Assembly (NCBI GenBank): GCA_040954595.2
Contig: CM082596.2
Location: 4,608,181-4,672,180 of the forward strand
Direction of reading: 5' to 3'
Origin: Balanoglossus misakiensis
Lineage: Eukaryota > Animalia > Hemichordata
Length of the DNA: 64,000 bases
Shown here: positions 9,360-63,020 of the stretch, one piece after another
Layout: each line of letters opens with the position of its first letter
How positions within the stretch are numbered: position 1 is the stretch's first letter
The notes under the pieces: model-generated
Told to the model about the DNA's origin: nothing
Databases searched by the model: none
What the model saw: the letters and a program-made list of their open reading frames with translations, nothing else
Position numbers and translations under genes: made by a program

Positions 9360-12300
9360 TTACACTATACAAATGACTTCATCATCATCCTTTTTTGCGT
9401 GAGAGTGTCCATCAGTCTTGGCTCTCTTGTGACTTGACAACGGACAGTGCTTTTTGTGTCGCTTCCGAAGCCGCTTCCTGTGATCTGGCGACATGCGGCA
9501 TTCGGTGACGATGACATCACAGTCATTATCGTTGCTGATAGTAGCACCTGTTTCAGGCCGGCTGCCTGACCTGCCACTGGTTTCCTGTACCTGGCTCTCG
9601 CCCTGAGAGGAGTTACAGTGGTTTCCTTGGCGCCTGAAAAACGGCGATATGTTTGTCTGTGCCATCCCCTTGACCAGCCGGTGCTTCCTACAGACCGGGG
9701 GCCAGGGTGTCTTGGCCTTCATGCTCATGCGTGTGGTGCTCTTGATAAACTTCTTTGCGGGCTGTGCAACGGGGGGGTTATTCCTGAAGTGAAACTCTTG
9801 CCTGGCCCGGGCTTCTGTTGCCTCCTCCTCGTCGTCACTGGACAGAAAGATAACATCGACGGCGCTCGATTTCGCCTCTGCATCTTTCCCGCGCCCTTCC
9901 ACGGCAGGTTCGGTTTCGCGTGAATTCGTCACGCGCTTTCTTAATAAGTCAGACGTGACGCTGGGCGACGCGGGGCCCACGCCATTCGGCATTGTGACGA
10001 AAACTTCGTGAGAACTCGAAGTGGCCGAACAGGAGCTTGTGCCTGGACTAGGACCGGAACCGGAGTCGTCCTGCTTCTTTTCTTCGCCGTTTTCAACTAT
10101 GACAAAAACATTCTGCCGGGGTTCCTCGAACAGCAACTTCCGGAGGCTCCTCATGTGAGCGCCGCGCGGCGGGTCATCGTTACACACGTCAATGTCACCC
10201 TCGTCAGAGTCGCTTGCATTGTTTCCAGGTTGACCGCCTGCATCCTGCTGCCCGCGATCCGGTGACCGCGGCTGCACATTCCCGCGATCTGTCGGACTGC
10301 TGACGTCCCCTGCACTGGCACAGTTGGGGGACTGGCGGTACGGGTGTCCCCTGAGCCTGTTGAACACCGGGGACCTCCCCTGGCTGGGCGTGCAGCGGGC
10401 AGGCGCGACTGGTGTGTTGGCCACGTGTGGCATTTCCGTGATGTCCAAGAATCTGTTGGTGCCGGGCGTGGGTGGCGACAGGTTCATCACGGATCTCGGT
10501 GTCCCCGCTCCCAAAAAATGCGACCGGGAATGGAATTGATTTGAGGTTATCCTCCATACAAATGATGGTGGAGTCATCTTCTGAGTTGCGGTACCCTCTG
10601 CGTTCTCTGTCAAGTAAATTAAAAGATTACCATTAAAATCATAAAACAAGAATAGATTCTTTAAAGATTAAATCAAAAGATACATCCGTATTCCTCGCCT
10701 TATTAGGATCCGACGAATGAATGTATGAACTGGACTCTTCACCATCATTGTTTGAAAGTGATTTCAGCCGTAATACGGTCTCTGATTCAGTGAGTGTAAA
10801 ATTAATTTCTGATTGGCGCGTATGTGTTCAATTGTGATAGACTAGCACAGCATGTTCAGACGACCAAAACAGAAACTCACCTTCTTGCAAATGCTGTTTA
10901 CAATCATCACAGGTCCAATTCATTGTGCTCGACTTCAAATCAGAACATTTCATGTGAGTGCCTGCCGAACCACACATGTGACAGATTGTTATTTCCCATT
11001 TGCTGAGAAAGAAAAAAAAAACACACACAAGCATTATATCCACACTTTATGAAATGTTAATCTATTTTCTGTTCAAAATGTGACATAAAATACCAGTGTT
11101 TTAATAAGCATACTTTGAAACATTCAATTTCAATTTCTGATTCTCAATCCTTACCTTCGGTTCTTACTGTACTGTCTGCCATCAGGACACACGCAGTTGG
11201 CAGCATCACATTTACTGTGCCTCTCTAACAACTCCTGGAATGCATTCTCCTCCAACTCCCATGACGCATCCCTGGAACAAACACATCAACAAAAAATATC
11301 CACTTCATTCACTGATAAATTCCACAATCTTGAGTATTTTGAAAGTTTATGTTATTCTACACGTGGATATATAGTGAATCAATGTTCGACCACACACAAC
11401 TTCCATCCCACTTGTAGACACGAGAGTGAAAAACTTGCCAAAATGAATAATCGGGTCTCTACCATTTATTCATTTGGGCAAGAATTTTTACTCTCATTCA
11501 CCAACATTTAAAAAAACTTACTGTTCTGGCACATAGATCCCAAACTCCTGCATTTCCTTCAGGAATTGGTCTCGGTTATTGCATATAGGGCAGCGGAAGA
11601 AGTAGTACCCAGCATTTAATGCTTGGTTCTGAAAAGTTAAGAAATTTCAACATGTCAGCATCTTCTAAACCCCATAGGGACACACTGGATAATTTGAATG
11701 GCCGTTAAGTTCCTCTTGCCCATACGTCACCCTCTCACTCACCTGGACACAATCTCTGTGAAGCCAGCTGTTCTTACAGCACGGTGTCTTCACGATATCC
11801 AACATATCGCTGCTATCAACCATCATCATGCAGATGGGGCATTTGCATTTCCGCGGTTTCTTGCCGTGAAGCTCTTGTTGAGGACGGTGGTCTTTGCAGA
11901 AGGAGCTGCAAAGGTTGGAATGTCGAGCATTACAAAACAAACAGGACAACAGTTGCCAAATTTTGTTTGCAGTTAAAAGGGAAGCGGTCGTTATGCAAAT
12001 TAGCCAAGTCTGTATCAGAACACCACTGCTCACGGTGACTCACCTGAAGTGTCCAAAGAACTGAAACAGCGATCCATTCTCTTTGCCACACGGGAAGTGG
12101 AATTTGAGCTTGCAGGACGGTACCACACATCCGATAGTGGCTCCCTTCTTATTGCAGTAGGTGCAGGTCAGTCGAGAGCCTCTCCTCTGTTCTTTCGCAA
12201 TGTCCTTGAGAAGGAATCCCTGAATGCCTTCGCTGTCTTCACCACGTTGGCTGAGTGCACTGGCAAACAGCTGACAACAAAAACGTTGGATGTTAACATT

Positions 12301-18215: not shown

Positions 18216-19253
18216 CTACTCTTCATCTTCCTCAAATGTTATACTTTGACTGTCGTACTGAAACACTTCCTCGGAGAAAATATCTTCCGGAAGTTCCTCT
18301 TCCAAATTTGGCATGTACGTTGGGAATGGTGGATACTCTGTTTTCGTCAGCTTGGAGTCCTTCAAGACGACAAATGATGTATGGTGCCCGGGGACCGACC
18401 CCTGCACGTACAGTATGTTGTATCTCGTGTTTACTCTCATGATCTTCAGGTTGACTACAAAGCGAAGCTGGTTGCCCATTTGTCCCGGCATACGCTTGCC
18501 TTTCCTCACTCTGGACGGTCTGGCAGAGCTTCCGACGGCGCCGATCTTCCGGTGGGTCTTCGTGGCGCCGTGCGACGCCGGCTGACCCTTCATCCCCCAT
18601 CGTTTCATGACGCCCTGGAAGCCGTGTCCGACTGACTTGGACGTGACGTCTACATACATCCCCGGCCTGAAGTGTGCAGCATACAGGGGCATGCCGGGCT
18701 GTATCTTAGCGTCCTCTGTTATTCGGAACTTGATCAATCTCTGCTTCACGGGAACGCAGGCCTTCCGAAAGATATCCGCGTACTCCTTTTCTACGTACCA
18801 CGGAGATGCGTTCTTCGCACCGACATACAAGTGGGCATATTTTTCCCCAGTCTCTGATGGTGGTAAGTAGTCAATAACATTGCAATCCTGCACCTGTAAC
18901 ATGGTTGTGGTGATCCGTTCTCCACTTTTCGTCCACATGGGGACCATCCCTAGCTTGATCGCAATGATGCCACAGCGTTTACTCCTCTCTGTCCATTTCT
19001 CAACCGGCCAGGGTTCATTCCTCAGAGGACTGGGTCTCAAGAGGTGCTGAACTCTTCCATAGTCGTGGGTGAACTGCAAGTTATCTGGAGTAATGTCACT
19101 TTCAATGTGGGCCTGACCTGGAGGGAGGGATGACACGCATCGCCTGTTTTGAACTGCATGGGAGACGGCCGTGGAGATTCTGTACTCGCACTTCAAGGAA
19201 ATCCCCCTGAAACAGGTCGGTAACATTTTCTGAAAGCATACGGTAAGTGACAT
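18216..19253 (-). CDS. MRPL3: Mitochondrial ribosomal protein L3 (uL3m), uninterrupted ORF
   Basis: 345-aa ORF with uL3 motifs GIIAIKLGM, HFRPGMYVDV, GHGFQGVMKRWG, PASHGATKTHR, KGKRMPGQMG, YVQGSVPG, PPFPTY; true start may be the second Met (MLPTCFRG). Confidence 0.95.
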   Translation of the reverse strand: MSLTVCFQKMLPTCFRGISLKCEYRISTAVSHAVQNRRCVSSLPPGQAHIESDITPDNLQFTHDYGRVQHLLRPSPLRNEPWPVEKWTERSKRCGIIAIKLGMVPMWTKSGERITTTMLQVQDCNVIDYLPPSETGEKYAHLYVGAKNASPWYVEKEYADIFRKACVPVKQRLIKFRITEDAKIQPGMPLYAAHFRPGMYVDVTSKSVGHGFQGVMKRWGMKGQPASHGATKTHRKIGAVGSSARPSRVRKGKRMPGQMGNQLRFVVNLKIMRVNTRYNILYVQGSVPGHHTSFVVLKDSKLTKTEYPPFPTYMPNLEEELPEDIFSEEVFQYDSQSITFEEDEE

Positions 19254-20031
19254 CTTGTTACAAGGTTCGTAAGGAGTCGATCAGGACAACTTACACTACT
19301 GATCAGTTCGATCTTCGTGCTCCTGCATCCAGCATGTCCCGGGGAACATTGCATTGTGGGTAGGTCAGAAGAGTCAACACTGTCGACAGAGGGCGTTTGT
19401 ATTTCCGGTAAATGCGTGCAGCAAATGCTGTCTGCACACACGATCAGCCGGCGTCGTGTTGAAGACCGTAGAAAGACTGATACTGAAGCCTGCTGAAGTA
19501 TACCGATGTTCTTGTAAAAGTCGTTCGTGATTAAGTTTGATAAGTATAATTCACTGTGTATACGGACTTGTGTGGATCACCCGGCACCGAGCGAGGAAGA
19601 CGACATATTGAAATTGACATTACTTCGGCGTTGCATCAGTTTGCAGCTGATGGTGGTCTAATTGTGACGGCCTGGAACTTCGAAGCCCTAAAATAACCCG
19701 ATCTTGTAAATGTTGAATGCACAATATGACCACGCAGATCAACAGAGAAGACAGCTAAAGAAACCAAGTGGTTTGATGTATTGAATGTAGACATATTGAT
19801 ATCACGTTGTAAAGTAATAGAACATTGAACTTTGAAGTTGTGAGGACAATCTTGGGATAACAAAAAGGTACGTATTTTTCTCTACCAACCATAAAATAAT
19901 GTATATGCTTATTAGTTAACCAGATCCATAGTTTAATGGGGAAAACCTGAACTTTCTTTACCAGCTGAGTAAACAACATAAAACCCACTGTTACATATTT
20001 GAAGATAAGAATATCCTATTTTCATGACTAG
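19254..20031. promoter_or_regulatory. Bidirectional promoter / 5' UTRs of MRPL3 and CDKAL1
   Basis: Head-to-head starts ~780 bp apart; + strand UTR donor AAG|GTACGT at ~19867 and acceptor TAG immediately before the CDKAL1 ATG. Confidence 0.55.
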
Positions 20032-23000
20032 ATGCCAGTTTGTGAGCAAGCCATAGAAGACATAGAAGATTTTGTATCAGGGACAGATTTAACACCAAAT
20101 GACAGATACAATGTCAAGAAAGATATTGTGCCGAGGGCAAGGAAACACAAGATCGTCAAGGCATCAGAAGAAAAAACATTCGCGGATAGGTGAGTTATGT
20201 TCTTACGGTATGTTGTATTATGAACATTTTCAAATGTGTAAGAATTCTCAAAAACAAAAGTGCTTATTGTTGTCATTTCTTTCCAGCATCATTCCTGGCA
20301 CTCAAAGTATTTATGTGAAAACCTGGGGCTGTTCTCACAATAATTCCGACAGTGAATACATGGCTGGACAGTTGGCTGCATATGGCTACAAAATCATAGG
20401 TGAGTATGCTAAAAAAACAGTGAAACTTGACTGATCATCAATTACTTCTCCACAACAAAAAAACAACATACACTATAAAACAATTTTTCTCTGCTATGGA
20501 AACACCCAACATTTGCCTGAAACACTTTTTGACTTGGTGACCCCCCTCCATCACCCAATTCCAAAACAGGGTGACCTCCCCCATGAATCCATCACCCCAG
20601 GCCAAAGAGATTGACCAGTCCCTTAAAATGTTTTTGTGCAGATAAGGAAGAGGAAGCAGATCTTTGGTTACTGAACAGCTGCACAGTGAAGACTCCGGCA
20701 GAAGATCATTTCCGCAATTCCATCAACAAAGCAAGGGATCTCAACAAGTACCTAGTGGTGGCAGGGTGTGTTCCCCAAGCTCAGCCCAGACTGAACTACA
20801 TCCACGGCGTCAGCGTTGTTGGCGTTCAGCAAATTGACAGAATCGTGGAAGTTGTGGAAGAAACTTTCAAGGGTGAGTAATTCTCTCTACCTTAAATAGG
20901 TTTTTGCTACCTAGGTGAGTGATTAAAATCTGATGTGGTCGACTGACTGACAAGATGGCAGATTTTCTTTTAGTACAATGAACTGGGAAGCAAAAGCAGG
21001 AAATGGATCTGTTTCTATAAAAAAATAACCATCTCATTACTTGTTTTTCTTTGAACCAGGTCACACTGTCAGGTTGTTTGGACAGAAGAAGAAAGATGGA
21101 AAGAAAACAGGAGGTGCTCCCCTAAGTCTGCCAAAAATTAGGAAAAACCCACTCATTGAAATAATTGCCATTAACACTGGGTAAGTAGATGACCTGAGCT
21201 TTCTCCATTGGTGGTGAAAGGGTTAAGAGACCACTGTAACCAGTGACCAATGTTCTTTGTTAATTTTCATTTATAGATGTTTGAATGCGTGTACATACTG
21301 CAAGACGAAACATGCACGCGGAGAACTGGGCAGTTATCCAATAGAGGAATTAGTAGAAAGAGCTAGACAGTCTTTTCAAGGTAAGTACTACACTATTATT
21401 TCTTAGATGAAACAGTATACTGTAACACAGACATCACAGTGTGTATTTATATCTTTTACTTGTTTTGTTAAATGTTAGAGGGTGTCTGTGAACTCTGGCT
21501 GACAAGTGAGGACACAGGAGCCTATGGTAAAGACATTGGTGTGACAATAGTGGATTTGCTGTGGCAGTTAGTGGAAGTGATCCCAGAGGGGTGCATGTTA
21601 CGCATTGGAATGACAAATCCTCCTTACATCTTGGAACATCTTGAGGTGAGGTTATATCTGAAAGTTTCCAAGGTAGTGGGGCCACTCTCTGATTTGAGGT
21701 TTTGTAAGTTTGCTAAAAGTTACAGCCACACAATTTACTTGCACAGCACATCAATAATATGTACCACTGTATTTTATGGCTTTTGTTGATAGGAAATCTC
21801 CAAGATCTTGAAACACCCCAGAGTCTATTCATTCTTACATGTACCAGTTCAGTCTGGTTCGGACAGTGTCTTGATGGATATGAAAAGAGAGTATTGCTCT
21901 GATGACTTCAGACATGTTGTTAACTTCCTCAAAGAAAGGTGAGAGTCAATGTATTTTGTTAACCAATGCATCGATTTCAAGTGATCAGACATACGATTGT
22001 AACCTTAGTACAAGATTTCACCACCAATCATTTGATTTTTTTACTTTCAGGGTTCCAGGTGCTACCATAGCAACTGATATTATTTGTGGATTTCCCACAG
22101 AAACTGATGAGGTGAGATGATCATTTCATGACACAAGTTATCTGACATGTTGGTCACACATTATTGCATTTACAACAAGCCTGGTGGCAATCCATGCCTT
22201 GGCTACACTAGCATCTGGATCTGATATTTTTTAGCAACTGCAATCTAATAATTATTTTATCATCATCACTCGTATTTTATTTCAGGATTTTGAAGAGACC
22301 ATGAAATTAGTCGACGAATTCAAATTCCCCAGTTTATTTATCAATCAATATTTTCCGAGACCGGGAACGCCTTCTGCCAAAATGCCACGCATACCAACCA
22401 GAGAGGTAAGTTGACATGAACAGGTGAAAAAAAACGGAAGTGTTCCTTTCTGGCTGTGATTTTGTGACATTTTGAAAGAAACTGATCAAATGTTTGTCAA
22501 TCTTTTCCTTAGGTCAAGAAGAGAACCAAAAAATTATCGGAATTATTTCAAAGCTACAGACCGTATGATCACAAAGTTGGCGAGAGACAACATGTGCTGG
22601 TCACAGAGGATTCACATGACGGCAGATTCTATGTTGCACATAACAAATTTTATGAACAGGTACAGGATTATGTGATATGTATAAGAGTGTAATGTTGAAC
22701 AATCACGGGCCAGGTTATTGTGATCGATGGCAACATGGGAAAATTCTCGGCACACTGAACTCCTTCACAATCTTTATTGTCATTTCTGTCAGGTTTTGGT
22801 TCCTCGGAAAGAAGAGTTTCTGGGCAAAATGATTGAAGTGAAGATAACATCAACTGGCAAGCACTACCTGATAGGAGATCTGATCACAGAGTCAGAACTA
22901 GTGACACCATCCATCAGTAAACCACTGCCCAAGGGAGTCGTGTCCGGAATGCAACTTGTAAGTCAGAGGTTCTCAAATCAAGTTACAATTTTAAAAGTGA

Positions 23001-23200
23001 GCATGCTGATAGCTGTCTTCTTAGGAACATTCTGAACATTAATTCTCAACATTTTTGCTTCTCATCTGCAGACTTCAGAAGATCACGCCAACTCCCCAAG
23101 TAAAGCCAGACCCTGGTTTGCCATAGCTGTCTATGTGGTCATCACTGCTGTTATTTTGGACATTGTGAAAATCGCTTACCAGTACCTCGTCAGCAGATAG
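20032..23200 (+). CDS. CDKAL1: Threonylcarbamoyladenosine tRNA methylthiotransferase (radical SAM, tail-anchored), 12 coding exons
   Basis: Exons 20032-20189, 20287-20399, 20642-20872, 21060-21180, 21277-21380, 21479-21645, 21793-21938, 22051-22111, 22286-22405, 22513-22659, 22793-22957, 23072-23200. UPF0004 motifs [24 protein letters not shown]; radical [11 protein letters not shown]; TDIICGFP; TRAM domain; C-terminal hydrophobic segment [15 protein letters not shown]. Confidence 0.96.
20490..20626. mobile_element. Right end of a non-autonomous DNA-transposon-like repeat (AGGGACTGGTCA terminus, TTAA junction)
   Basis: TGACCAGTCCCTTAA at 20612-20626 is the inverse of AGGGACTGGTCA at 39885; CATCACCCAATTCCAA shared with ~39963; left boundary approximate. 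Confidence 0.55.
20878..20966. repeat. Dispersed repeat fragment, second copy at 46742-46820
   Basis: TAAATAGGTTTTTGCTACCTAGGT[G/A]AGTGAT[T/G]AAAATCTGA ... CAAGATGGCAGATTTT in both places. Confidence 0.75.
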
Positions 23201-25812: not shown

Positions 25813-28800
25813 ATGGATGATGCAGACCAAGACGTGTACGTTGCCCAACTGAAGGAAGTCTTTGACAGCTGCGACACACTGAGGAATGGCAGACTAGGCA
25901 GAGAACAACTAATACAATTATGTCACAAATTGCAACTAGATGATCAAACTGATAATTTATTAGATCAGCTGCTTGACGATGACGATCCCAATTCTAAAGT
26001 GAGTCTGTGTTGTATTTTGTTTGCAGTGATCTCTTGTTATTGATGTATATTATTATTACCAATAATTGCACACATGCATGCTTTGATTTACTGTTTACTG
26101 TTTTACTGTTAGCATTGAAAAGAAAACAGTTTGGGCAGATTACAGTATATTTTTCTATGAGTGTTCTGTCCTATTTTAAAATCACTTTAGGTTGATTTTG
26201 ATGAGTTCAAGGAAGGGTTTGTGCTAGTCTTATCCAATGCTGTAGAAGAAATAGAAAGTGAAATAGAGAGTGATGAAGATGACGATGAAGATGATTACAG
26301 TGCAGCAAGTAGCAATCATAACTATGCAGGTAAGGAATTGACAAAATCGGGGATAGATGTCTTTACTACCAGTAATCAGTTATGTTGATTCATTTGAAGC
26401 TTTAAGAATACAAACGTTAGATCTTCATTAACGTTTGAACACAGACTGCTGTGGATATTTATGTCTATTATACTTCATCCCTCTAGTCCAAGCTGACGGA
26501 TCCGCTTACACAATCCAAGACGAGAAAGACAGAAATGAAGAAGACGAACACGCTTTGGAACCCAAGTATGTCAAAGACGGCAAGAGATACGGAAGACGAT
26601 CCAAACCAGATTTCACAGAATCTGAAAACGACTACAACACGACAGAGTATTCTGACACAGATGTAAGTTACCAGTCACCCAGGCAAACACCAAGGTCAAG
26701 GTCGAATAGCAGGTCGAAAAGACTGTCCTCAATAGGAAGCGCGGAGGTGAGTTCAGAGGGCAAAGTTCACATAGGTCATCTATCACAAATGCGTTATCCA
26801 CAGTCCTGGGCCTGAAGTAATTAGAAATTCCAGAGATTCCAATTGGATCTGTAACAGGGTATACAATATTTTATATGCAGCCCTAACAGCTCATAAGTTC
26901 ACTGATGATGAGTGTTGCATTTTCATTTAATGGCAGAGTATTGATTACGACGACGAAGACAAAGATTCTGGGGGTGAGGACAGTGATGGCTCAGAAGAGA
27001 GTAAGAAGAACGAGAAGAATGAAACATTCGAAGCTGAAGGTATGTGTAATCTGCTGATGTTTTTGTATTTGTGTCATTAGTGTGTGTGTGTGTGTGTGAG
27101 AGAGACAGTATCATGAGTCGTATAGTATTCTAACCATTAATCTGATGATCTTATATCTGTTTGAAGGACAACTAGACACTCCCTTGAGTTTGATGGACGT
27201 AACAAGCCCAACCGATGAAGTTCAAGTCAAAGCCATCTGGGATGACGTCGGAGTTGGACAGAACGGATACCTGGACATCAAGGAATTGGCCATCGTGTGC
27301 GAACACATCGGAATGGAAGGGATGAGCCAGGAGGAATTTCAGAACCTCTTCGAGAAACTTGACGTAGATGGTGACAGACGCGTCAGTTTTGACGAGTTTG
27401 TGCGCGGTTTGTTTATCCACGGATCGGTGTCCGCGCATGCACTTTCGACGTCGCCCTCAGTTCACTTACTTTCTGCGTCGCAGAAATCAAAGTTGCGAAT
27501 GGCAATGAACAGTTCAGCGGACGATTTAATCCGTACGGCCACACCGTCGTTTCTCACTACTGGACACGAGTCTGTATGGCTTTCTGTTCTTGATCCAGAT
27601 AACTCAGGGTGAGTTCTACCAACTTCTCACAGAACTTTTTTTTTCTTCAGACAGTAGAATTTCATCACAACAAGCAGATAATCACTGTCTAACTGTGTAA
27701 CCATTTCACCACCATTTAATCACGTGTGATGGTCAACGCTTGGCATTGTTAACGATAAGATTGGTAGAAAGTCTGTGGTTGAGTTGGATGAGAGATTATT
27801 CACTTTCACCCTGTATTAAATTGAGTTTGCTCATGGAAAGATATCATTTGAGCTAAATGTGAGGTTGCATCCATTTCATACTTTGAGTAGCTACAAACAG
27901 GTCTTGAAACTGCCAAACTGGACAGTTTGGTGGTGTGGGAAGTTAGTGCTTGAAAAATGGAGTGTTAATTCAAAAAATGCATAAGACAGTTAGCAGAAAA
28001 TCCAAAATAGTGATGAAATTATTACTCACATGTTAGCCTTTGCATGTACCATGTTCAGGTGAAAGGTTGTATGCTCTAGGGGGCGCTGTTGTTCCCAACC
28101 TCAATAAGCTAATCGAAGTGACTCATAGAGGGCTCACTACATTCAGCTATCGTCATCACACCTGTTCACATGTAAATTTTTTAATGATCCAAAAATAACA
28201 CTATTTACGAAAATGAATTTGTAATATTAAATTGTACACGTAGTTGAATTTTGCAAAGCTGACTTGGATTATGCAGCTTTTTTGCACAATTTTCCCCTGA
28301 AATTTTGTGTTTTTGGTTCAAATACTTTTTTTTGCCTACCATATGTTTGCGTGAGTGTCAATATGTGCGTGGACATTTCATGCACGCAGAAACATATTGC
28401 AGTGGTTTTACAAGGATAAATTGAATGACAGCAGTTGCATTGATATTAAAATTTCTACTCTAGGTCATTCAGATGACGTAGAGATGTTAGTATATCAACC
28501 AAACATGGCTCGGTCCAGCCATATTTTGAGCAAAGCAGGCTGTTATATTTTTTTGTTTGGCTATTTATATAATTAATTATATGTAAAGTACCATCATGTT
28601 TCGGAAATATTTTGATGAGTTTTTGCCGTACAGCAAGCAAAATCCGAAAGTTCAGGAGAAGGCAAAGGAGAAACAGAAAGCTGGGGAACGTTCCGATGCC
28701 GATGGGTAAAATAATGGATTTTGTTTATTGGATTATTTATTGCCGGTTGTATGTCATCCGAATGAAATATGATAGGCAGCTGTGGTTTGTGTAGGATGCT

Positions 28801-31800
28801 TGGTTTTGTTTGTTTATCAGAGTTGTCTTTTGGAGTTGTCAGGTCTGGTTATGGTTGATTAGTGGGTTAAGTTGCCAGATGAAGATGATTGTATGGAAAG
28901 TCTTGTCAAATGAGGATACAATCATAATGCTTATTAAAATAAAATTCATCATTGTCTTGTTATAATTTCTATGTTTTTTCAGTTGCATATTATTTTTGCT
29001 TCACCTGTCATGCTTGTTTTATTTTAATTTGCATGTTAGGTTTGTCCAACCAGATGACGTAGCTCAACAGTTTCAATCTCAGGGAATACACAATCCACAT
29101 GAAGTACTGGAGGTAAGAACCAACAGCAATGAATTCAAAACACATGTGATACATGGCCAAAAAAAAAAACTTAACGTTGTAACCCACTGACATTTATGTG
29201 GTAACAGCTTGGATAAATTACCAAAGATTAAACATTAAGTGCATGTGTATGGTCAAATTTACCACCTTGGTTTATTCCAAGTCCATTGCTTTTTACAGTT
29301 AAGTTGGACCTGGGGGAATAGGGTGAGAAGGTTTTAGTAGCTTATTGACAGGCAGTGTTCCTATTGACAGGCATTGGACGTCGATGCTGAGGGTGGGAAG
29401 ATCAACGTCCAGGACTTATCAACAGCTCTGGAGCATGTGTTGCTAACAACTGGCGATGACAATGGTGTCTACCAAGCCGCACTGACCACCTACCAGAGGG
29501 AACTGAAGCATCTGAAATCAGAGCTGGACGTTGTCGTCAACGAACGGGAAAAACTGAAAACGGATCTGTACGAAGCCAACGCCAGGAATGCGACGCTGGT
29601 GCAAGAAGTGGACGACAGGCAGGCCAGCCTTGAAAGGACCATGGAAAATCAAATAACGTAAGTGAACAGTGGGAAAATGATGGAATGCATTAGGGACATG
29701 GCAAGATACATAGACTTTTGGTATGGCAGAGTTACTGCAATGGTGTCAGAGTTCAACCATAATAATAGCCTTGCAATGTTACTAAATTTAACCAACAAAC
29801 TGAAAATACAGCTGTACCAGTAGGATGGCAACAATTAATCATGTTCCCAGCTATTTTAGTTTTAATCTAATGTTTCACTCGCACATGCTGCTAATTTGTG
29901 CATATTTGAAGTGATTTTATGCATTGGTTGACAGGGAAGCTGAGAAGAAACACCACGAGAAGATCAACAGCCTACAGGTGGAGATCGAGAATGAGCGCGA
30001 GATGATGTCGTCGCAGGCCGGCAGACAGAAACAGCAGCTGGAGGAAATCATCGATCAGCTGAGAGGGGAGGAGTCGCTCCTGAAAGAGAAGCTGGCCCTG
30101 CTGCAGAAGGAGAACAACCGGCTGAACACGGATGTGGTGGATTTGGCGGAGAAACTGGAGGAGTACGAGAAGACGAATCAGAAGTTGCAAAAGGACGTGG
30201 AGGATTTCAATAGACTTCAACAGAGGGTAGGTGTGGACTGTGTGTGTTTGGAAGGACTGAGTCGGTCATTAGCTGACACAAGAACTTGATAGAATTATGA
30301 AAGGCTTGTTTAATGTACTCCTTGGTACAGTATGTAATCTTGGATTATATTTGGATTGTGAAAATTGAGTTAATTACTGTAGTACCCGAAATATACAGCA
30401 CAGAATGAATCCTGTCATATCACAACCTTATCACAAGTGTGGTTAAATAATGACATGTCTGCAATTGCTGTCATTATAGTAATGAATATTAATGCCCATG
30501 TCATGATTATATGCCATAATTCTTCAAATAATTTCCATATAATTGAAGCATATTGTCCCTTTCACAACTGGTGTACAGTAAAACCCAATTGAAAAAATCA
30601 CCAGAATTCAATCAATATTGCAAGAGTTAATTATATGTATCTGGTAGTAGGAATCAGCTTCATTGATTTGGTGTACTTGCGGACAAATCTTATTTAAATG
30701 TCATTCATTTCAATTACTGTTCCTAATTTAATTTTAAGATATAAAACGCCCCTACAAATCCCTATGAATGTAATGGACAACCCCTATGTCACATGTTATC
30801 ATCTCATCTCGCTTGCTTCCTCCCCTTCCCATGATTCATGTGGGTACACAGTTAGCCGAGTTTGAAGCCCAAGAAGATCACATCAATGAGAAAAATGTTC
30901 AGTTTTACCAGCAGAACTTGAAAGAGTATCAGGAACAGAATAGAGTAAGTCTGACCAGAGATACATATGTGTGCATCTGACTTGTTTGTTATCAGTACTT
31001 TTGTAGATTTCGTTGTTGTTTGTTATCAGTAGATTTATAGATTTTGTTGTTTTTGCAGCATAATTTGGAGTCAACATGACACATTCTCGTTTGTCCATTT
31101 ACAGGGTTTGAGGGACGAGAACGACGAACTCATCCAACAGATTCAGCTTCTCCAGCAGCAGTTATCAGAGCGTAAACTTCGGAGGAGAGGTAGCCGATCG
31201 CGGGATCCCTCCAAACCAAACAGGAATGGGTCCGTCTTGTCAGACTACGCCAAACCAACTGTCATCAAAAGAAGGGGCCCACTGTCTTCCACAGGTCAGT
31301 ATTACCATTAGTGCATCCACGGTTCAAACAGTGGTTAGAGGGTGTTTGTATACAGTTACCTGTGCAAATGTTTCTATCAATTTGTCATTGGAGCAGTTCT
31401 CACACAAGCCATCATTCCTGGTTTGTACCATAAACACAGACTAAATCGGTTTGATTTTCTTTTTCCCCAGAGGATGAATCAGAAGATGAAGTCGACGGAT
31501 CAGCTTCCATTTCTGGTAAGAGGAAACGCCGTCAGCTTCCTGTTGCTATGAGATCAGGTGGGGATGGGGGGTCCAATGAGGATGAAGATTATAGCAACAA
31601 AGCTCAGGATGATTGTAAGTTGCGCTGCTATTGGACGATTCGGCTAGAAGACACCAAGTAGCAACAACCATGCATGATGTGCCACAAATCCTAAACCCTA
31701 AGCATTGGTCCCGGGGTGGTGTAGTATGTGTAGTGTAGATAGACACAAGATGTAATGAAAGTAGAAAAGTTTAATATGGTAGCAGTAGTTTTAATTGAAT

Positions 31801-34800
31801 GTTTATGTTAGTTGATTTTTGTTACATGAAGTGTTTATGTGCATGTCTAATTACTTGAGAAGAAAAAAGGAATGAAAAAAGGTCTTGATGAAAATATTTA
31901 CATGTATATCTTAAATCAGCTCACTTCAAGGCTTGGCTAGTTTTTTTTTAATGGAAGCTATTATTGAAGTGTCTGAATTTGTGCATGATACACGGAAAAG
32001 TGAAATGAACCTAACTTGCCTTTCAGCTGCCAAACATGCAGAAGAGATCGAAAACTTGAAGAAAAGTCACAACCAGGAGATAAACGAATTGAGGGTTAAT
32101 TTTGAACGAGAACGAAAGGACATCGAACAGGCTTACAAAATGGAGATAACCGACCTTGAAGATGACATGGCCACAGCCAAGGAGGAATTTGCCAAACAGC
32201 GGGACAGCTGGAGAGCGACAATCGAGGATCAGGAAAAAAGTGCCAAGGAAGAGAAAGACGACAGGGAAAGAAAGTTCCGGAAAGAAAAAATGCAGCTGCA
32301 AGAAGAGTTCGACAGAGAAAAAATGGAACTTCTGCAAAAATTTGCGAGAGAGAAATCCGATTTGAGAGACAAATTAGAGCAGGAATACAATGAGGACTTG
32401 GATAACAAAATAGCGAATGTGAAAGAAAATTTGTTGAAAGAGCGAGCTGATCTGGAGGACCGGTACACCAGGGAGAAACTTGAGATAGGGCAGGGATACG
32501 CCCGGGAGAAGACGCAGGTAGAGATGGACCACAAACGGGCAAAATCCGAACTGGAAGTTCAGTTCACGGCAGAAAAGTCGCAGCTGCAGCAGGACCAGGA
32601 AAGGGAGAAGGCAGAGTTGGAGCGCATGTACAAGAAGCAAATGGCCGAGCTGGAGCAGATATTTGTCAAGGGTGAAGCTGGTTTGAAAGGTCAGCTCCGG
32701 GCGGATTTTAACGAGCTCCTGGAGCAACACAAGCGGGAGTTGGAAGCGTCTATGGAGAAGGAAAAGCGAGACATGAAGGTGATGTTTGAGAAGGAGAAAG
32801 AGGAACTGCAGAGAGAGGTGGATGCGGAAAAGTCCCGGCTCGAGCGGTCGTTCCGGGATGACAAGATGGGAAATGAAGAAAAGGCGAGGAAGGAACTGGA
32901 AGAGGAGAAAGCAAACATGGAGAGTAAACTCAGGCAAAAAATCAAAGTGAGTGTAAACTTGTGTACAGGATGCAGCAGCATTGTCAATCAATTCTGATTT
33001 CTCTTTGCCAGATGTAGAGAGGATCACATTTTGCAGAGAGCTTGGTCTTGATCATTTTCTCAGCTTGACACAGCTTGTAAATACTCAGATCTTAATAGTA
33101 TTTATCCAGTCACACTAAGTAAGTGGCAAAAAAATTATGAATGTTCGCTTTTGTAGAGGGAGATGGAAAATGCATTTGTGGAGCAGATTGAAAGAATAAA
33201 AGACGCACATGAAGAAGAAAAAGAAGATTACAAGAAAGAGATTCAGATGCTTCAGGACAAGTTACAGAAGGTAAGAAAGGGTTGATTAGACACATTGCTT
33301 AGTCTGCCACAACCTTCTCTTGGTGTTGAAGCTGAACAATTCATACACCTTCCAATGACTGACCCATTGATTTAACATTAAACTGTTACGTGTTCTTCAG
33401 ACACAATCAAATTTGGAGAAGTCTGAGAAACGCCAGAAAGCCCTTGAAGTTGAGAGAGAGGAAACAGTGACTTCTATGAAGACACAGACATTACACGCAG
33501 CTCAGCAAAGAAGTACATTTGATAAGGTATGTCACATCCACAGTGTCATCAGAAACTATGAATCTGCAGATGTTTATATACTACACGTAGCTTCCAATGT
33601 ACCATGTCTTCCCTCTGTAGAAACTTGTTGACACACAACATGCAAAGTATAGGAAACACACTGTATTGTACCGTATATGCAGATTCATGTGCATGTAGTA
33701 ATGCTGTGTTGACCTCTGACACCCATCAACTGTCAACAATGTAAAGTCACAGCATTACCAGCATATGTGCCAAAGCAATGCACAATGGCTCTCTGTGATA
33801 AGCTTTTCCAATCACTCATCAGTTGTAGTAGTGTATGTGCACAGATGTCGCTTTTAAAGCTGGGATTATCAATCTGACATTATTTTGCTTTGCCTTGAGT
33901 GAGGATTTGCAGACCTAGATGCTATCGGAACTGTTTTCCCAAATCCTAAAGTTCATTTGACCTTACAATCACCAATGTTTTTTAAACAAAACAAAAATTC
34001 ACATACGAACTGACCATAAAAACCCAGCTCTGCCTAGCCATGCCTAATTGCATTAATTTGTACTGATTACAGCCTGTAGAGGATAGACACATGTATACAG
34101 CTTCACCACGCAGCTCACCCAAAACAATTCATAGAAAACTCCGAGACAAGGAGAAACTTCTCACAAACAGGGTACAATTCCATTCCTATGTACAGTTTTA
34201 TCAGTAATGTGGATGCACTCATGAATGCATAATTTCCTATCATCTCTTGGTGCAGGGTATTTTTCTCTTCTATTTTTTATTCTACCATACAGAGGTCAAA
34301 TATTTTCTCCACTCACAGAGGGTGCTGTCGATTTCTGTGTGTGGGGCTTAGAATGTTTAACCTCTGTGTGTTCATTGAAATAAACGAAAGATACATTATT
34401 GTCATGGTTTGTTTAAATACACCATTAAAGATCATTTTTTGCACCTGGCTGAACTATAGTTGCTTCATGTTTCATTAAAATTGCACTGTGTGTTTCAAGT
34501 GGTACAATTTATGATATCTTCTTGGGGGGAAAATGGCAGTTCTTGCTAGCATCTACTATTGTCTGATCAATGTATGTAATCAGACATGCTGGTTGAAATA
34601 CGTTTTGTATTCTAAACAAAATCGTTGCTTCCTTTTGTATGTGGACAGTTTTTACCGTTCTTCAAGTCAGATCAGCCACCAACTGCCAATCAAAACACTG
34701 ATCAAAGTGTAACAACAGTAAGTTATGGAATGCTCTGGTCTAGCCTTGGCATCTGATGGAGATGTAGCATTGGTGCATAGACCGACGTAGTGTCAATGTA

Positions 34801-37382
34801 TCAGGACATAGATGGGTCTAGTGTTTTTGTACATATGTACACATGTAGGACAGATGTAGTGTGATATCAGCAAAAGGCAAATTGGGATATACCTGCAATG
34901 GACAGTGTAGTGTAGGAGGTAGATTTGATGTAGTGTGGGAATCCTGGATAGATGACATACCTTAGCACCCAGTATCAACATCGGAATGGGAACAGAAGTG
35001 AGATTGTAGAAAAACACCAACCGTTGTATCAACTTATCCAGTTGGCCACAATGTGCATACTAGCTAACCCAGCTACTCTTTAGTTCTCCCTATTTCATCA
35101 CCTATGCTATAGCTGTAGATATATTAATGGTAAGATTGCATGGATAGCTCTCTAAAATGTAAACTTAATCAGCATCAGTAAATGCTATAGGACATGCTTT
35201 TATTTTGCTGTATCAATTAAAATTGCTTATTGAGCTGTTAATACATCTATTACCAGTATTCTTTCCTTCTCTGTTCCATCTTTTATTATTTGCACGTGTT
35301 AATGTTTTAATCCAGTCATAGTTTCATTTACAACTTTCTACTAACCCCTCTACTAACCATACTGTGCAATCCTTTCCATAAGGCCGCCTATGAGGACATG
35401 GACAAACAAAAGAATTTATTAGAATTAAAAGTAAGGGCCTTGGAACAGAAACTGAAGACCAAGACCCATCTGGAGGGAGTTTCAAAGGGCGTGCAGGCCA
35501 CGGCGTCGGTCAATTGGAAAATGACGCAGACGTTCGAAGAGAGTTTTAAGGTCAGGGGTAGAAATAACAGCACACAGACTGAGATAAACGTGCAGTCGAG
35601 AGCCCAGCAGACCGTAGTGGAAGGCGTCCGACTGAACACAAAAGTCAAAATGACTCAGACTTACACGGAAACGCTTTCTAAAAGTGTGCAGTTTCCTGAC
35701 GTAGAAGGGAAGGGCTGGCTGAATTGGCTGTGGAATAAAGATGACAACACAGCAAGCCACGCTGTTCAAGCCACTGTGATAACAGTCCAGAGAGGGGTCC
35801 AGACCCTAGACGATGGTGCGGGCAAAAAGAGGGGAGACAGCCAAACTCAAACGGCATTCGATGATTTCATGCCAAAGACGAGATTTCGAGTGATGCAGAC
35901 ACAAACTGACCAGAAGACCAGAGTTGTCTCAGTCCAAACTTCCGATGATTTTATGCCAAAGACGAGATTTCGAGTGATGCAGACACAAACTGATCAGAAG
36001 ACCAGAGTTGTCGCAGTCCAAACTTCCTCAGAGGAAAAGATAGAAACATTCGAACAGAAAGTACAAACAGACAATGAATTATTAGAATCACTGGTTTTGG
36101 AGTCTCCGTACAGACAAAGAACGCAACTGACAGAGGTTGGCTCATACTTAGTTCAGCTCTTTGTCACTTTCGGCCCCGCTGTCTCGATAACTTGAAATGA
36201 CCCTGTTGTCTTTGGCATTGTGACGGGTCATTCTATTGGCTAAAATGGGTGTGTGAAGGTCTAATGAGCTGCGGTGGTGGAGCTTCTTCCATGCTTGTCT
36301 TTTGTCAAATTGAACATTCCTGAATTGTATGAGTCGAGTAATGGGTACGCATTTCCTTGAGATTGCCAATTCTTGGCTTAAACGGCAATTACTGAGTTAC
36401 TGAAGATATGATTTTGTGATCATGTCAATGATTTTGTCGTTTTCTTTCAGGCAAAACTGGAAATGTTAGAAGAGGAACGCGGCACTCTGAAGAGAGACCT
36501 CAAAGAGGTGAACCAAAAAGTAAGTGTGTCTTCAAGGCAGGAAAGTTGGAATCACATTTTGAAATGACTGTGATACACAAAACGGGATTCATTAACAGTG
36601 CCTTTCCACATTGGTAGGCCAGTGATTCTTTTTAGCACACTCTTAGCAGACAGCTGGATATCGTTGCTAGTGCTCGCATTAACATTCGCCACATTTGATC
36701 TGTTTTGACCAGTTGCTGGAAGCAAGAACGTCGCTGTCACTTTCGCAGTCACAGCACATCCGGGAAATGCAGCGACTGCGCGACCAGCGAAGCGAGGTCA
36801 CCGAGAAGGAAGTGCACGCCGTCACCAGCAAGTTGGCCGAGAGGGAAACCCAGCTGCAGGAGATGGAAAGGGTCATCCGAGAGAAAGAGGAAGAGTTGAA
36901 CAAAGGGTTGAACAAAATCAAATTGGAGTACGACGGAGAGATCAAAGCGCTGAGGCAAGACAGGGTGGAGATGGACAAGAAGCACAGATCAACCAGGGGG
37001 CTGTTGGATGATTATGTCATCAAACTCAAAGAACAGGTGGGTAGAGTGCATCATGGGATGATGTCTGGTGCAGTATGGGTAGGGTAGAACAATGGACTTT
37101 CAAAGAAATGGCGCAAATTCAGAGTGACCAAGTGTTCGTAGATTTTCACATTGTTGTCACATAGTTCAAGTTCTGGTTTCTGTTTTTCACTCGCAGCTGA
37201 ACAAGTCCACGAAACGTGACATGCTGCTGAAAGAACTATACATAGAGAACTCGCAGCTAATGAAAGCCTTGGCCCAGACAGAGGAGAGGGAGAAGACAGC
37301 AGAGCGAACCGTTTACCAGTTGAAAGACAAAAACAAAGCCCTGGCAAGGCTGCTGAAGAGAGTTTGCCCAGCGGCCTTGTAG
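25813..37382 (+). CDS. NIN: Ninein / ninein-like centrosomal EF-hand coiled-coil protein (dynein activating-adaptor family)
   Basis: Core exons 25813-25998, 26191-26329, 26487-26746, 26937-27039, 27167-27608, 29040-29112, 29371-29657, 29935-30226, 30852-30944, 31105-31294, 31471-31614, 32027-32946, 33157-33270, 33401-33526, 36451-36519, 36713-37036, 37197-37382. Signatures QLKEVFDSCD, VDFDEFKEG, EPKYVKDGKRYGRRS, FEAEGQL, LDVDGDRRVSFDEF, LRDENDEL, LLKELYIENSQLMKAL..PAAL; probably co-orthologous to NIN and NINL. Confidence 0.93.
28634..28705 (+). CDS. NIN: Candidate 72-nt cassette exon of ninein (KQNPKVQEKAKEKQKAGERSDADG)
   Basis: TTTTTGCCGTACAG acceptor, GG|GTAAAA donor, phase 2-2 matching the host intron, open and purine-rich. 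Confidence 0.5.
34073..34171 (+). CDS. NIN: Candidate 99-nt cassette exon of ninein (PVEDRHMYTASPRSSPKTIHRKLRDKEKLLTNR)
   Basis: TTACAG acceptor, AGG|GTACAA donor, phase 0-0, open frame. Confidence 0.45.
34649..34717 (+). CDS. NIN: Candidate 69-nt cassette exon of ninein (FLPFFKSDQPPTANQNTDQSVTT)
   Basis: Pyrimidine tract + CAG acceptor, ACA|GTAAGT donor, phase 0-0, open frame. Confidence 0.45.
35383..36135 (+). CDS. NIN: Large (753-nt) probable alternative ninein exon encoding a TQT/VQT-repeat region
   Basis: TACTAAC x2 branch region, AAG acceptor at 35382, 251 open codons in phase 0, weak donor GAG|GTTGGC (otherwise reads to TGA at 36195). Confidence 0.7.
35860..36027 (+). repeat. 84-bp (28-codon) tandem duplication inside the TQT exon
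   Basis: 35860-35943 and 35944-36027 encode DDFMPKTRFRVMQTQTDQKTRVV[S/A]VQTS; 3 differences (TTC/TTT, GAC/GAT, TCA/GCA). Confidence 0.95.
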
Positions 37383-39193
37383 CGACACACACACAATTCA
37401 GTGTTCCCATTGGCTACTTCAAGATGATGGTCTATTGCTATTGGCTGTTCAGTCAACAGTTATTCATGTGACAATACAAACACAATGCAGGTTATCCACA
37501 CTGACTTCCATTGTTCATTGTGAGTGACAATAGATTTTTATGGACCAAATTGTGTCCCTGAATTACTCTAATACACTTTGATTTAATAGCATGCCTTTAT
37601 AGCGATTTTGGATTTTAAGTAATGAAAATGGCATTGTTGACGTACAATGTACCTCAAGCATTCCTTACAAACTGTTAGAACTGCTGGAATTCCGAGTCAT
37701 GGAACCCTGTTTTGAAAGTTTCAATATCAGGGGGGTTCAGTAAATTTGCAGAGCGTTCTGGGTTTAATGTGAATTTTTCTAAATTATCCATACAATCAGT
37801 GCTTTAAAGTGGTATCATTCTTGTAAGTTATTTTGTCTTTTTTTCTGTCCACCTATGAAGGCCGGAGTAATTTTAGAACCTATGTGAATGCCTTTTTTAT
37901 CAATTATGGACCAAAATCTAACCATGCTTTGGTGCCTTATCTAATCATCTATACTTTCCTTGAGTGTCCATGGCTAATCATTTACTAGTAAATGTTAAAT
38001 CAAAACTACAATGCAATTTTAGCATTGAAAGAAAAAGAATCTTTTAAAACCAAACTGAGCTTTTTTTTTACAATGGTGTACATTATCTCTGCTAGAGCAA
38101 TTTAATACAGATTTAATTAGTGATATGCTGTGAAATATATACATATTTTGTATGAAGATATACTAAATTATTTCTGTCTTTCTACAAAAGGGCTTCTAGT
38201 TTTACTGACCGTATGACATTGATTTCTAATGTGAATTCTGATAGAGCAATGCTAAAATTCTTAAAATTTTGTAAAGATTTTGAATTAAAAAAATCATGTG
38301 ACTCCTTACATACTCTTCAATGATGTAAAATTTGTATGAAAAATGTAAACTTGATTTTGTTTTTGACAACGATTTCTCTCCATATTTATAAATATATTAT
38401 TATTATATATAATATATATACAGTGTGTGTGACTTTTATATCAGTATGGTATAGTATTGGGACAGGAATTTCATAGCTTTCAATGTGTGTGTGATTTTTA
38501 TGTGTTTTTATATTTTATTATTTATAACTTGAACATTTTATGATCTTGTGCTAATTATTTATTGATATGCAACTTCTTGGGATACAGAGATACATTTTAT
38601 ATGCATGTTTCGTTTATTTTATGGTAAGGCTTCCTAGATAAACAATAAGCAATAAGAAAGGAATTAGAATTTTGAACCAAAGATTTGTTTATTCTGAAGA
38701 AAAATAATTGAGTGTTTAGCTTTTCTTTCAGTATTACTTGCTTTATATCATGAATGAATACCTGTGTATTCATGTACATCAGAACCACGTCCATTTTAAT
38801 CATATTCCTATGGAGTACAATCAACAGCATAATTCAACCTTGAAAGATTTGACAAAGTACTGGAAAAATTATGTCATAAAAATGGCAATCATATGTTTTC
38901 TTTTCTGTTTTAATAGTATAATCATTGTCATATGTTTAGCATAAAATCACAGGGATTACATGCTTTTTTATGATTGTCAAAAATGTTATGTCAATAAACC
39001 TTGATTGTGAAAGTAGAAGTGGTTTCATGTAATTTATTTAGACTTCTTTAATATTTATGGTAGCTACCACACATGTTGTCTACTGAAGTTATGGAGGGGG
39101 GGGGGGAGAATTTGTTCCTTTCATGTGTGGTGAATGGCGCCCCCAACGACAATTTATAGAGTACGAAATGATACAAGAACCCCGGCCCAGAAA

Positions 39194-43473: not shown

Positions 43474-63020
<19,547 letters not shown>

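What the first reader, a model, noticed from the sequence alone, without database searches (positions are those of the whole stretch)
35339..36195. Ninein exon carrying an array of about 14 LC8/DYNLL-type binding motifs
Seen: a 251-codon phase-0 exon inside the ninein coiled-coil region, low in heptad character, with six TQT (KMTQTF, NSTQTE, KMTQTY, SQTQTA, MQTQTD x2), four VQT (RGVQTL, VSVQTS, VAVQTS, QKVQTD) and four variants (KGVQAT, HAVQAT, RAQQTV, KSVQFP), mostly 11-17 aa apart. Established: [K/R]xTQT and GVQT-type motifs bind the LC8 hub; multivalent arrays occur in ASCIZ/ATMIN and Nup159; ninein is a dynein-dynactin activating adaptor. Inference: a splice-switchable LC8-ladder module in ninein that could rigidify or relocalise the adaptor or titrate LC8. 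I know of no such array in vertebrate NIN/NINL. Flanking exons (33526 and 36451) join in frame without it.
Basis: partly seen in the sequence, partly recalled or inferred. Interest (0 to 1): 0.85.

Follow-up and report, generated by a model that had tools for sequence, protein, structure and literature searches.

The report
LC8 ladder in acorn-worm ninein
One exon of an acorn-worm ninein gene (a centrosome protein that switches on the dynein motor) has grown from a short ancestral exon into a conserved row of 12-14 short motifs that likely bind many copies of the small clamp protein LC8 and would turn a predicted floppy gap in ninein's rod into a stiff spacer; neither binding nor exon skipping has been shown.

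Summary
Exon 35383-36135 (753 nt, AG/GT, phase 0) lies in an acorn-worm ninein/NINL gene and encodes 14 QT-centred sites (6 TQT; shuffles average 0.46, 0 of 20,000 reach 6). RefSeq models of Ptychodera and Glandiceps carry the same exon with 12 and 13 sites; anchor columns are invariant in 27 of 36 cases against 44 of 148 elsewhere. New here: the exon's first 26 residues match a 42-residue exon at the same junction in echinoderm nineins, so the ladder likely grew inside an old coiled-coil cassette exon, by tandem duplication that is still going on (84-nt repeat). Of 113 other ninein-family proteins, 112 have at most 2 sites per 200 residues; one brittle-star isoform has a separate, unalignable array. 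LC8 binding is inferred from motifs only, and just 2 of 14 sites break none of the published rules, which fits a cooperative KANK1-type rod better than strong single sites. 'Splice-switchable' is unproven: no RNA run was listed, and no skipping isoform appeared for the two species with the ladder. Multivalent LC8 arrays are known, human ninein has one weak site, and this scan noted similar ladders on other DNA.

The parts
35383..36135 (+). The exon: 753 nt, 251 codons, phase 0 at both ends
   Evidence: AG/GT ends and open frame; same ends in Ptychodera P0001 and Glandiceps P0002 models, 56% and 48% identity
35383..35460 (+). Coiled-coil head (residues 1-26), homologous to the start of the 42-residue exon of sea-urchin and other echinoderm nineins
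   Evidence: Scores 43 against five echinoderm heads; the orthologous heads are the best windows of their whole proteins (42, 48; next best 21, 24). Predicted helix, pLDDT 74-85 over residues 1-20
35479..36072 (+). Array of 14 QT-centred LC8-type sites (10 with T/V-Q-T anchors, 4 non-canonical), mostly as pairs 11 residues apart
   Evidence: Q invariant in 11 of 12 gap-free site columns across three species
35716..35742 (+). Conserved G-W-x-x-W-L segment inside the one long (26-residue) gap of the array; candidate hinge or second docking site
   Evidence: Conserved in all three species; short helix 112-120 in a low-confidence model; function inferred
35859..36027 (+). Recent 84-nt tandem duplication; each 28-residue unit carries one TQT and one VQT site
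   Evidence: TRF period 84, 2.0 copies, 96% matches; 3 differences, 2 silent; absent from Ptychodera and Glandiceps
33401..33526 (+). Upstream flanking exon (phase 0), with one further TQT at 33470-33493
34073..34171 (+). Small phase-0 exon (99 nt), used before the array exon in the Ptychodera X2 model
   Evidence: tblastn 62% to P0001; weak donor score 2.3
34649..34717 (+). Small phase-0 exon (69 nt), used before the array exon in the Glandiceps X3 model
   Evidence: tblastn 52% to P0002; splice sites
36451..36519 (+). Downstream flanking exon, resumes the coiled coil
25813..37382 (+). Whole ninein/NINL coding region (EF-hand N-terminus, coiled coils, conserved C-terminal tail)
   Evidence: Collinear tblastn to P0001 and P0002; open frames; tree of the orthologues

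Best explanation
The exon encodes a conserved row of 12-14 QT-centred motifs that likely bind LC8 dimers cooperatively, which would zip the two chains of the ninein dimer across a predicted disordered ~200-residue gap and turn it into a jointed rod between two coiled coils. Shown: the exon, the motif excess, anchor-focused conservation in three acorn worms, the 11-residue pair spacing, the homology of the head to the short echinoderm exon, and lineage-specific changes in site number. Inferred: (1) the segment is disordered alone; (2) LC8 binds, helped by the flanking coiled coils that hold two chains in register; (3) pairs 11 apart (3-residue linkers) stack LC8 dimers tightly, the 7-10-residue linkers and the one 18-residue linker act as joints; (4) the loaded array adds very roughly 45 nm (scaling from KANK1) between the N-terminal dynein-dynactin-binding half and the C-terminal anchoring tail, and could oppose the fold-back proposed for ninein, so that reach and activity would depend on LC8 supply and, if the exon is skipped in some cells, on splicing. 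It is unlikely to be a tether to dynein, since LC8 filled by two ninein chains has no free groove (recalled knowledge).
For: Motif excess, 0 of 20,000 shuffles. Invariance by offset: Q 11 of 12, -1 and +1 each 8 of 12, other offsets 1-4 of 10-12; anchors 27 of 36 vs 44 of 148 other columns, Fisher p 9e-7 (columns not independent and sites chosen on the window sequence). This is the pattern published for the LC8 motif (PMC6607443 section 9). QT dipeptides 14 vs 3.5 expected, while S/T-Q is not enriched (8 vs 5.2). K, R or another large residue at -3 in 13 of 14 sites. Sites were re-multiplied independently: 28-residue unit here, 14-residue unit in Glandiceps. AlphaFold gives no fold: 205 of 251 residues below pLDDT 50 (only 3 sequences, so weak). 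KANK1 L2 forms a rod from at least 15 weak sites with 3-4-residue linkers (PMC12803091). Coiled coils next to LC8 sites raise affinity (PMC12017986 passage). A human NIN peptide binds LC8 weakly.
Against: No binding was tested or modelled. Only 2 of 14 sites here (5 of 12 in Ptychodera, 6 of 13 in Glandiceps) break none of the published position rules; 4 have anchors not seen among the 79 binders of Table S4, and 6 have a large hydrophobic residue at -4. Many TQT peptides do not bind LC8 (32 non-binders in the same table). In ASCIZ a 3-residue linker gave off-register, heterogeneous complexes (PMC10046861 passages), so mixed linkers may not give a uniform rod. DYNLL1/2 were absent from the human NINL pull-down (PMC4617706 passage). 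The rod length and the effect on fold-back rest on analogy alone; only three species carry the array.
Confidence: 0.6

Rival explanations
1. LC8 binds, but the array works as an ASCIZ-type heterogeneous sensor or store: partial, dynamic occupancy that reads or buffers LC8 at the centrosome or basal body rather than forming a rod.
For: Mixed linker lengths (3, 7-10, 18) and mixed site quality resemble ASCIZ, where such mixing favours partly filled complexes. Site number differs between species (14, 12, 13).
Against: The first eight sites keep the same register in three species, and the array sits between two coiled coils of a structural dimer, as in rod-forming clients.
Confidence: 0.17
2. On the separate question of splicing: the exon is constitutive in the acorn worms that carry the ladder, and only the small 99-nt and 69-nt exons before it are optional, so there is no splice switch.
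For: No Ptychodera or Glandiceps protein lacking the exon among 88 hits, although single-block inserts of 37-159 residues split other species' isoforms into separate clusters. The two models differ in the small exon, not in the large one.
Against: Weak donor (score -0.2, below 24 of 25 others); phase 0/0; the Saccoglossus model lacks it; the echinoderm counterpart is present in 5 and absent in 6 of the 11 echinoderm models aligned, both states within Amphiura. The 6 and 7 members of the two clusters could not be listed, so a hidden skipping isoform is possible.
Confidence: 0.5
3. The repeats serve another partner or role: an ATM/ATR-type S/T-Q phosphorylation cluster, or a self-associating beta-structure with a threonine ladder.
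For: The segment is rich in T, V and Q (14%, 11%, 11%); 8 S/T-Q dipeptides.
Against: S/T-Q is not enriched over shuffles (2,295 of 20,000 reach 8), whereas QT (0 of 20,000) and V/I-Q (19 of 20,000) are; half of the sites have V, I or Q before the Q. No strands or solenoid in the model, no match in Pfam and none better than E 0.26 in the PDB.
Confidence: 0.1
4. The array is a near-neutral product of repeat expansion in a tolerant linker; any LC8 binding is incidental.
For: A recent duplication made 2 of the sites; the array is confined to one branch of acorn worms; most nineins manage without it.
Against: Anchors are conserved well above spacers between Ptychodera, Glandiceps and this species, the frame is intact in all three, and a brittle-star isoform has its own array near the same place.
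Confidence: 0.1

Closest known systems
KANK1 linker L2-LC8 rod (PMC12803091; abstract, Discussion part 1 of 2 and passages read)
   Same: About 15 individually imperfect LC8 sites in about 220 residues, short 3-4-residue linkers, one longer hinge, next to a coiled coil in a microtubule-organising adaptor.
   Different: KANK1 binding is measured and its sites are mostly non-canonical; here 10 of 14 anchors are T/V-Q-T, linkers alternate short and medium, the array is one exon, the host is a dynein activator, and nothing is measured. No sequence relationship was tested.
ASCIZ/ATMIN and Nup159 multivalent LC8 clients (Table S4 of PMC6607443; PMC10046861 passages; Nup159 as described)
   Same: Many TQT-type sites in a disordered stretch; duplex formation expected.
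   Different: ASCIZ is a transcription factor with strong sites and heterogeneous complexes; Nup159 has strong sites with 4-5-residue linkers. Neither interrupts the rod of a motor adaptor.
Vertebrate NIN and NINL (PMC12651242 parts 1-2 of 3; PMC6429586 abstract; PMC4617706 passages)
   Same: Same family: the acorn-worm gene is co-orthologous to both. Both have a large alternatively spliced exon (NIN exon 18, NINL exon 17), and one human NIN peptide binds LC8 weakly.
   Different: The vertebrate NINL insert maps about 250 residues upstream of this junction (Saccoglossus residue ~830 vs 1084) and holds 0-1 such sites in 4 pairs examined. No vertebrate protein scanned has more than 2 sites per 200 aa.
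Myosin Va exon B (passage and reference titles in PMC3078936; primary papers not read)
   Same: An alternatively spliced exon in a motor-associated coiled-coil tail decides LC8 binding, which stabilises the coiled coil.
   Different: One site completed by a tiny exon, against a 12-14-site ladder in a 250-residue exon whose skipping is not shown.

Membership tests
Ninein/NINL family | N-terminal EF-hands, long coiled coils and the conserved C-terminal tail, collinear with known members | tested here: met
   All exons match P0001 and P0002 in order; those proteins carry EF-hand Pfam domains and recover NIN/NINL across animals
Ninein/NINL family | Orthology to vertebrate NIN and NINL | tested here: met
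   Hemichordate orthologues form a clade (100/100) with echinoderms as sister (99/97); vertebrate NIN and NINL form one clade (100/100); 24 of 115 proteins used, the window protein itself not included
Ninein/NINL family | Activates dynein-dynactin and localises to the centrosome | not testable with these tools
   Known for vertebrate proteins (PMC12651242); assumed by orthology
Multivalent LC8 clients (ASCIZ, Nup159, KANK1) | Several motifs with a T/V/I-Q-T anchor, beyond chance | tested here: met
   10 canonical anchors; 0 of 20,000 shuffles
Multivalent LC8 clients (ASCIZ, Nup159, KANK1) | Anchors conserved above their spacers | tested here: met
   27 of 36 vs 44 of 148 columns, three species
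Multivalent LC8 clients (ASCIZ, Nup159, KANK1) | Flanking residues fit the published position preferences | tested here: inconclusive
   2 of 14 sites break no rule, 8 break one, 4 break two by my hand-coded reading of PMC6607443 section 9; LC8Pred itself was not available
Multivalent LC8 clients (ASCIZ, Nup159, KANK1) | Motifs lie in an intrinsically disordered region | tested here: inconclusive
   Low pLDDT and no fold, but from 3 sequences only; composition unlike the neighbouring coiled coil
Multivalent LC8 clients (ASCIZ, Nup159, KANK1) | A self-association domain nearby | tested here: met
   Coiled-coil head in the exon and coiled-coil exons on both sides; dimer state inferred from the family
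Multivalent LC8 clients (ASCIZ, Nup159, KANK1) | Measured binding of several LC8 dimers | not testable with these tools
   Needs ITC, SEC-MALS or EM; no complex was modelled
Regulated cassette exon | Symmetric phase, skipping keeps the frame | tested here: met
Regulated cassette exon | Both inclusion and skipping seen in transcripts of one species that has the ladder | tested here: inconclusive
   Inclusion in two RefSeq models; no skipping isoform among 88 hits; no RNA run listed
ATM/ATR S/T-Q cluster domain | Excess of S/T-Q dipeptides | tested here: not met
   8 observed vs 5.2 expected, 2,295 of 20,000 shuffles reach it

The most novel reading that the evidence does not exclude
Ambulacrarian nineins have twice (acorn worms, and a brittle star) evolved an optional LC8 ladder near the same point of the rod, so that splicing and LC8 supply together set the length and stiffness of a dynein activator: a tunable strut of up to about 45 nm that holds ninein open and sets how far its motor end reaches from the centriole or basal body.
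Probability: 0.22. Interest if true: 0.72.

Novelty: new variant of a known kind. Interest (0 to 1): 0.48.

Why it matters
LC8-built rods have been shown in few proteins, and eight literature searches returned no report of such an array in ninein. Here a before-and-after series exists at one exon junction: no exon, a 42-residue coiled-coil exon, and 220-251-residue versions with 12-14 sites. That makes it a natural test of how LC8 ladders arise, of the linker rules proposed from KANK1 and ASCIZ (it alternates 3-residue and 7-10-residue linkers), and of whether stiffening ninein's distal rod relieves the fold-back proposed to limit its dynein activation. Its reach is limited: one branch of acorn worms, a known type of interaction, no measurement.

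Tried and rejected
RNA evidence: no RNA holder listed for 31900-37400, so no reads were laid; this is no evidence either way. No genome is held for the window, so paralogues and an LC8 gene could not be sought. The isoform members of the Ptychodera and Glandiceps clusters could not be listed. Pfam: no family on the exon ORF at E 0.1. PDB sequence search with the 3-sequence profile: 6 hits, best E 0.26, mostly designed coiled coils on the head. ESM Atlas: best score 0.83, no usable lead. Profile search of 1.84 billion representatives: 2 hits, P0001 and an unrelated repetitive protein P0116 (E 1e-4), rejected. The profile did not match the Amphiura X6 array or the echinoderm short exon, so homology of the head rests on position plus the ungapped scoring, and the brittle-star array is treated as independent. 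Equating this exon with vertebrate NINL exon 17 was rejected. An S/T-Q cluster was rejected. No LC8 complex was modelled, since no call supplied an LC8 sequence; the LC8Pred matrix was not rebuilt. Tables S1 and S3 of PMC6607443 could not be read; S3 holds the NIN binding data. Look-alike stretches in the scan's other windows: none.

Full report
The gene. The window holds a ninein-family gene on the + strand from 25813 to 37382. Its exons match, in order, the ninein-like proteins of the acorn worms Ptychodera flava (P0001) and Glandiceps talaboti (P0002), mostly at 60-90% identity, so the window is very likely from an enteropneust. A tree of 24 of the 115 proteins retrieved puts the three hemichordate proteins in one clade (100/100), sister to echinoderms (99/97), with vertebrate NIN and NINL as one clade (100/100): the gene is co-orthologous to both (the window protein itself was not in the tree).

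The observation. The exon is 35383-36135, 753 nt, AG/GT, phase 0 at both ends. Shuffles of the same residues give 0.46 TQT and 1.07 [TVIS]QT on average; 0 of 20,000 reach the observed 6 and 11, and the same holds with one copy of the internal repeat left out. Q-to-Q spacings are 11,16,11,16,11,26,11,16,18,11,17,11,15: six pairs 11 apart (an 8-residue motif plus 3), separated by longer steps. An 84-nt tandem duplication (35859-36027; 3 differences, 2 silent) accounts for four sites. Five exon paths, with and without this exon and the two small exons before it, all give open frames.

It is a real coding exon. A search with the exon among proteins of 441-2000 residues found 2 of 1,094 candidates, P0001 and P0002, at 56% and 48% identity over its whole length, spliced at the same ends. 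Whether those RefSeq models rest on RNA reads I could not see. Across the three species the Q is invariant in 11 of 12 gap-free site columns, the -1 and +1 positions in 8 of 12 each, other offsets in 1-4 of 10-12; anchor columns 27 of 36 against 44 of 148 for the rest of the post-head exon (p 9e-7; columns are not independent, and sites were picked on the window sequence). Ptychodera has 12 sites and Glandiceps 13, the latter with its own 14-residue repeat.

Where it came from. At this exact junction the Saccoglossus model has nothing; three sea-urchin models and one unnamed transcript contig have 42 residues; Amphiura has an isoform with nothing (X8) and one with 159 residues (X7); five other echinoderm models, amphioxus and Owenia have nothing (16 proteins aligned). 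The first 26 residues of the acorn-worm exon match the start of the echinoderm insert: score 43 here, and the orthologous heads are the best windows of their entire proteins (42 and 48, next best 21 and 24, mean -16, SD 10). So the ladder most likely grew inside an old ambulacrarian coiled-coil exon, on the Ptychodera-Glandiceps branch (grouped at 89/85) unless the Saccoglossus model simply skips it. It is not the vertebrate NINL cassette, which maps about 250 residues upstream and holds 0-1 such sites in the 4 isoform pairs examined.

How far it is spread. Of 113 other family proteins scanned, 112 have at most 2 [TVIS]QT per 200 residues; these include 68 vertebrate-type proteins but not human NIN or NINL. 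The exception is Amphiura isoform X6 (P0044), which leaves the common path one exon earlier and has 5 such sites (2 of 20,000 shuffles; not corrected for the 113 proteins looked at) plus three TMT/CLT-type sites under a pattern that I widened after seeing them. It does not align with the acorn-worm array and lacks the conserved C-terminal tail. A profile search of 1.84 billion representatives found only P0001 and one unrelated repeat protein.

Does it bind LC8? Not tested. The conserved anchor is the one described for LC8 (PMC6607443: passages, section 9 and Table S4 read). QT is enriched (14 vs 3.5) and S/T-Q is not (8 vs 5.2), which argues against an ATM/ATR cluster. Against strong binding: by my hand-coded version of the published rules only 2 of 14 sites break none, 8 break one and 4 break two; the VQA, QQT and VQF anchors are not among the 79 binders listed, and 32 anchor-bearing peptides in that table do not bind. 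That profile, many imperfect sites with short linkers, is what PMC12803091 describes for KANK1, where isolated peptides fail but at least 15 sites together form a rod, with 220 residues spanning over 50 nm (abstract, Discussion part 1 of 2, passages). In ASCIZ, however, a 3-residue linker gave off-register species and 6-9-residue linkers gave uniform ones (PMC10046861 passages), so a mixed result is possible. AlphaFold gives a helical head, a short helix on the conserved tryptophan segment, and no fold elsewhere (205 of 251 residues below pLDDT 50), weak evidence from three sequences. One human NIN peptide (2017-2025) bound LC8 weakly by ITC (Table S3 unreadable), whereas DYNLL1/2 were absent from a human NINL pull-down (PMC4617706 passage).

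Mechanism. Ninein binds dynein-dynactin through its first ~600 residues and anchors through its tail; a fold-back of the distal half onto the middle has been proposed as a control (PMC12651242, parts 1-2 of 3). The exon lies about 300 residues from the C-terminus, between two coiled coils, outside the motor-binding part. I infer that LC8 dimers zip the two chains across the gap into a jointed rod, very roughly 45 nm by scaling from KANK1, so that LC8 supply sets whether this part is a slack hinge or a strut. Odds: LC8 binds the array about 0.8; it acts as a structural spacer, given binding, about 0.75; together 0.6.

Is it a splice switch? Open, about even. For: symmetric phase; a donor that scores -0.2, below 24 of 25 other donors in the window; both states at this junction within Amphiura; absence from the Saccoglossus model; precedent in myosin Va exon B (passage and reference titles in PMC3078936) and in NIN exon 18 (PMC6429586 abstract). 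Against: among 88 hits, Ptychodera and Glandiceps each gave one cluster, with the exon, while single-block inserts of 37-159 residues split other species' isoforms; the 6 and 7 cluster members could not be listed. No RNA run was listed for the window.

Novelty. Multivalent LC8 clients are known, as are a single LC8 site and large alternative exons in ninein. Searches for ninein with LC8 and TQT (2 papers), ninein with DYNLL1 and related terms (25 of 43 listed), ninein with hemichordate (1 paper), Bsg25D with cut up (15 of 34 listed) and LC8 with cassette exon (19 of 21 listed) showed, in their listings, no report of an array in ninein; PMC12135376 has no mention of LC8 or DYNLL and PMC12017986 none of ninein. 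The library lacks most subscription papers. This scan has noted LC8-type ladders in other genomes (9 findings), among them a KASH-type protein; I did not check them. Verdict: a real, conserved, lineage-restricted variant of ninein, most likely a cooperative LC8 ladder; interest 0.48.

Noticed in passing
P0044 (Amphiura filiformis isoform X6) residues 1203-1445: A separate array of 5 [SIV]QT[DE] sites plus TMTD/CLTD-type sites in an isoform that lacks the conserved C-terminal tail; not alignable with the acorn-worm array, so possibly a second origin of an LC8 ladder in ninein.
   Followed up: partly
window 34073-34171 and 34649-34717: Two small phase-0 exons, both conserved; the Ptychodera X2 model uses the first and the Glandiceps X3 model the second, so they are likely alternative, perhaps mutually exclusive.
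   Followed up: partly
window 35716-35742: G-W-x-x-W-L segment conserved in three species in the middle of the array; could be an amphipathic helix binding a membrane or another partner.
   Followed up: partly
window 36136-36195: If the weak donor at 36135 is missed, the frame runs 19 more codons to a TGA, giving a ninein that ends after the array without its tail; no AATAAA/ATTAAA in 36136-36450.
   Followed up: partly
window 33470-33493: One more TQT in the upstream exon, kept in Glandiceps and not in Ptychodera; probably inside a helix.
   Followed up: no
P0112-P0114 (beetles, residues ~745-785), P0092/P0094/P0005/P0012 (fish, ~570-625), P0093/P0095/P0098/P0099/P0105 (amphibian NIN): Single LC8-like sites ([SIV]QT[DE] and similar) recur at matching places within several lineages' nineins, hinting at an older, low-valency link between ninein and LC8.
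   Followed up: no
window 20000-23160 (+), 18219-19280 (-), 43772-53329 (-), 9363-12039 (-): Neighbouring genes that look like a CDKAL1-type methylthiotransferase, mitochondrial ribosomal protein L3, an Ena/VASP protein and a PHD-finger protein; names recalled from the translations, not tested.
   Followed up: no
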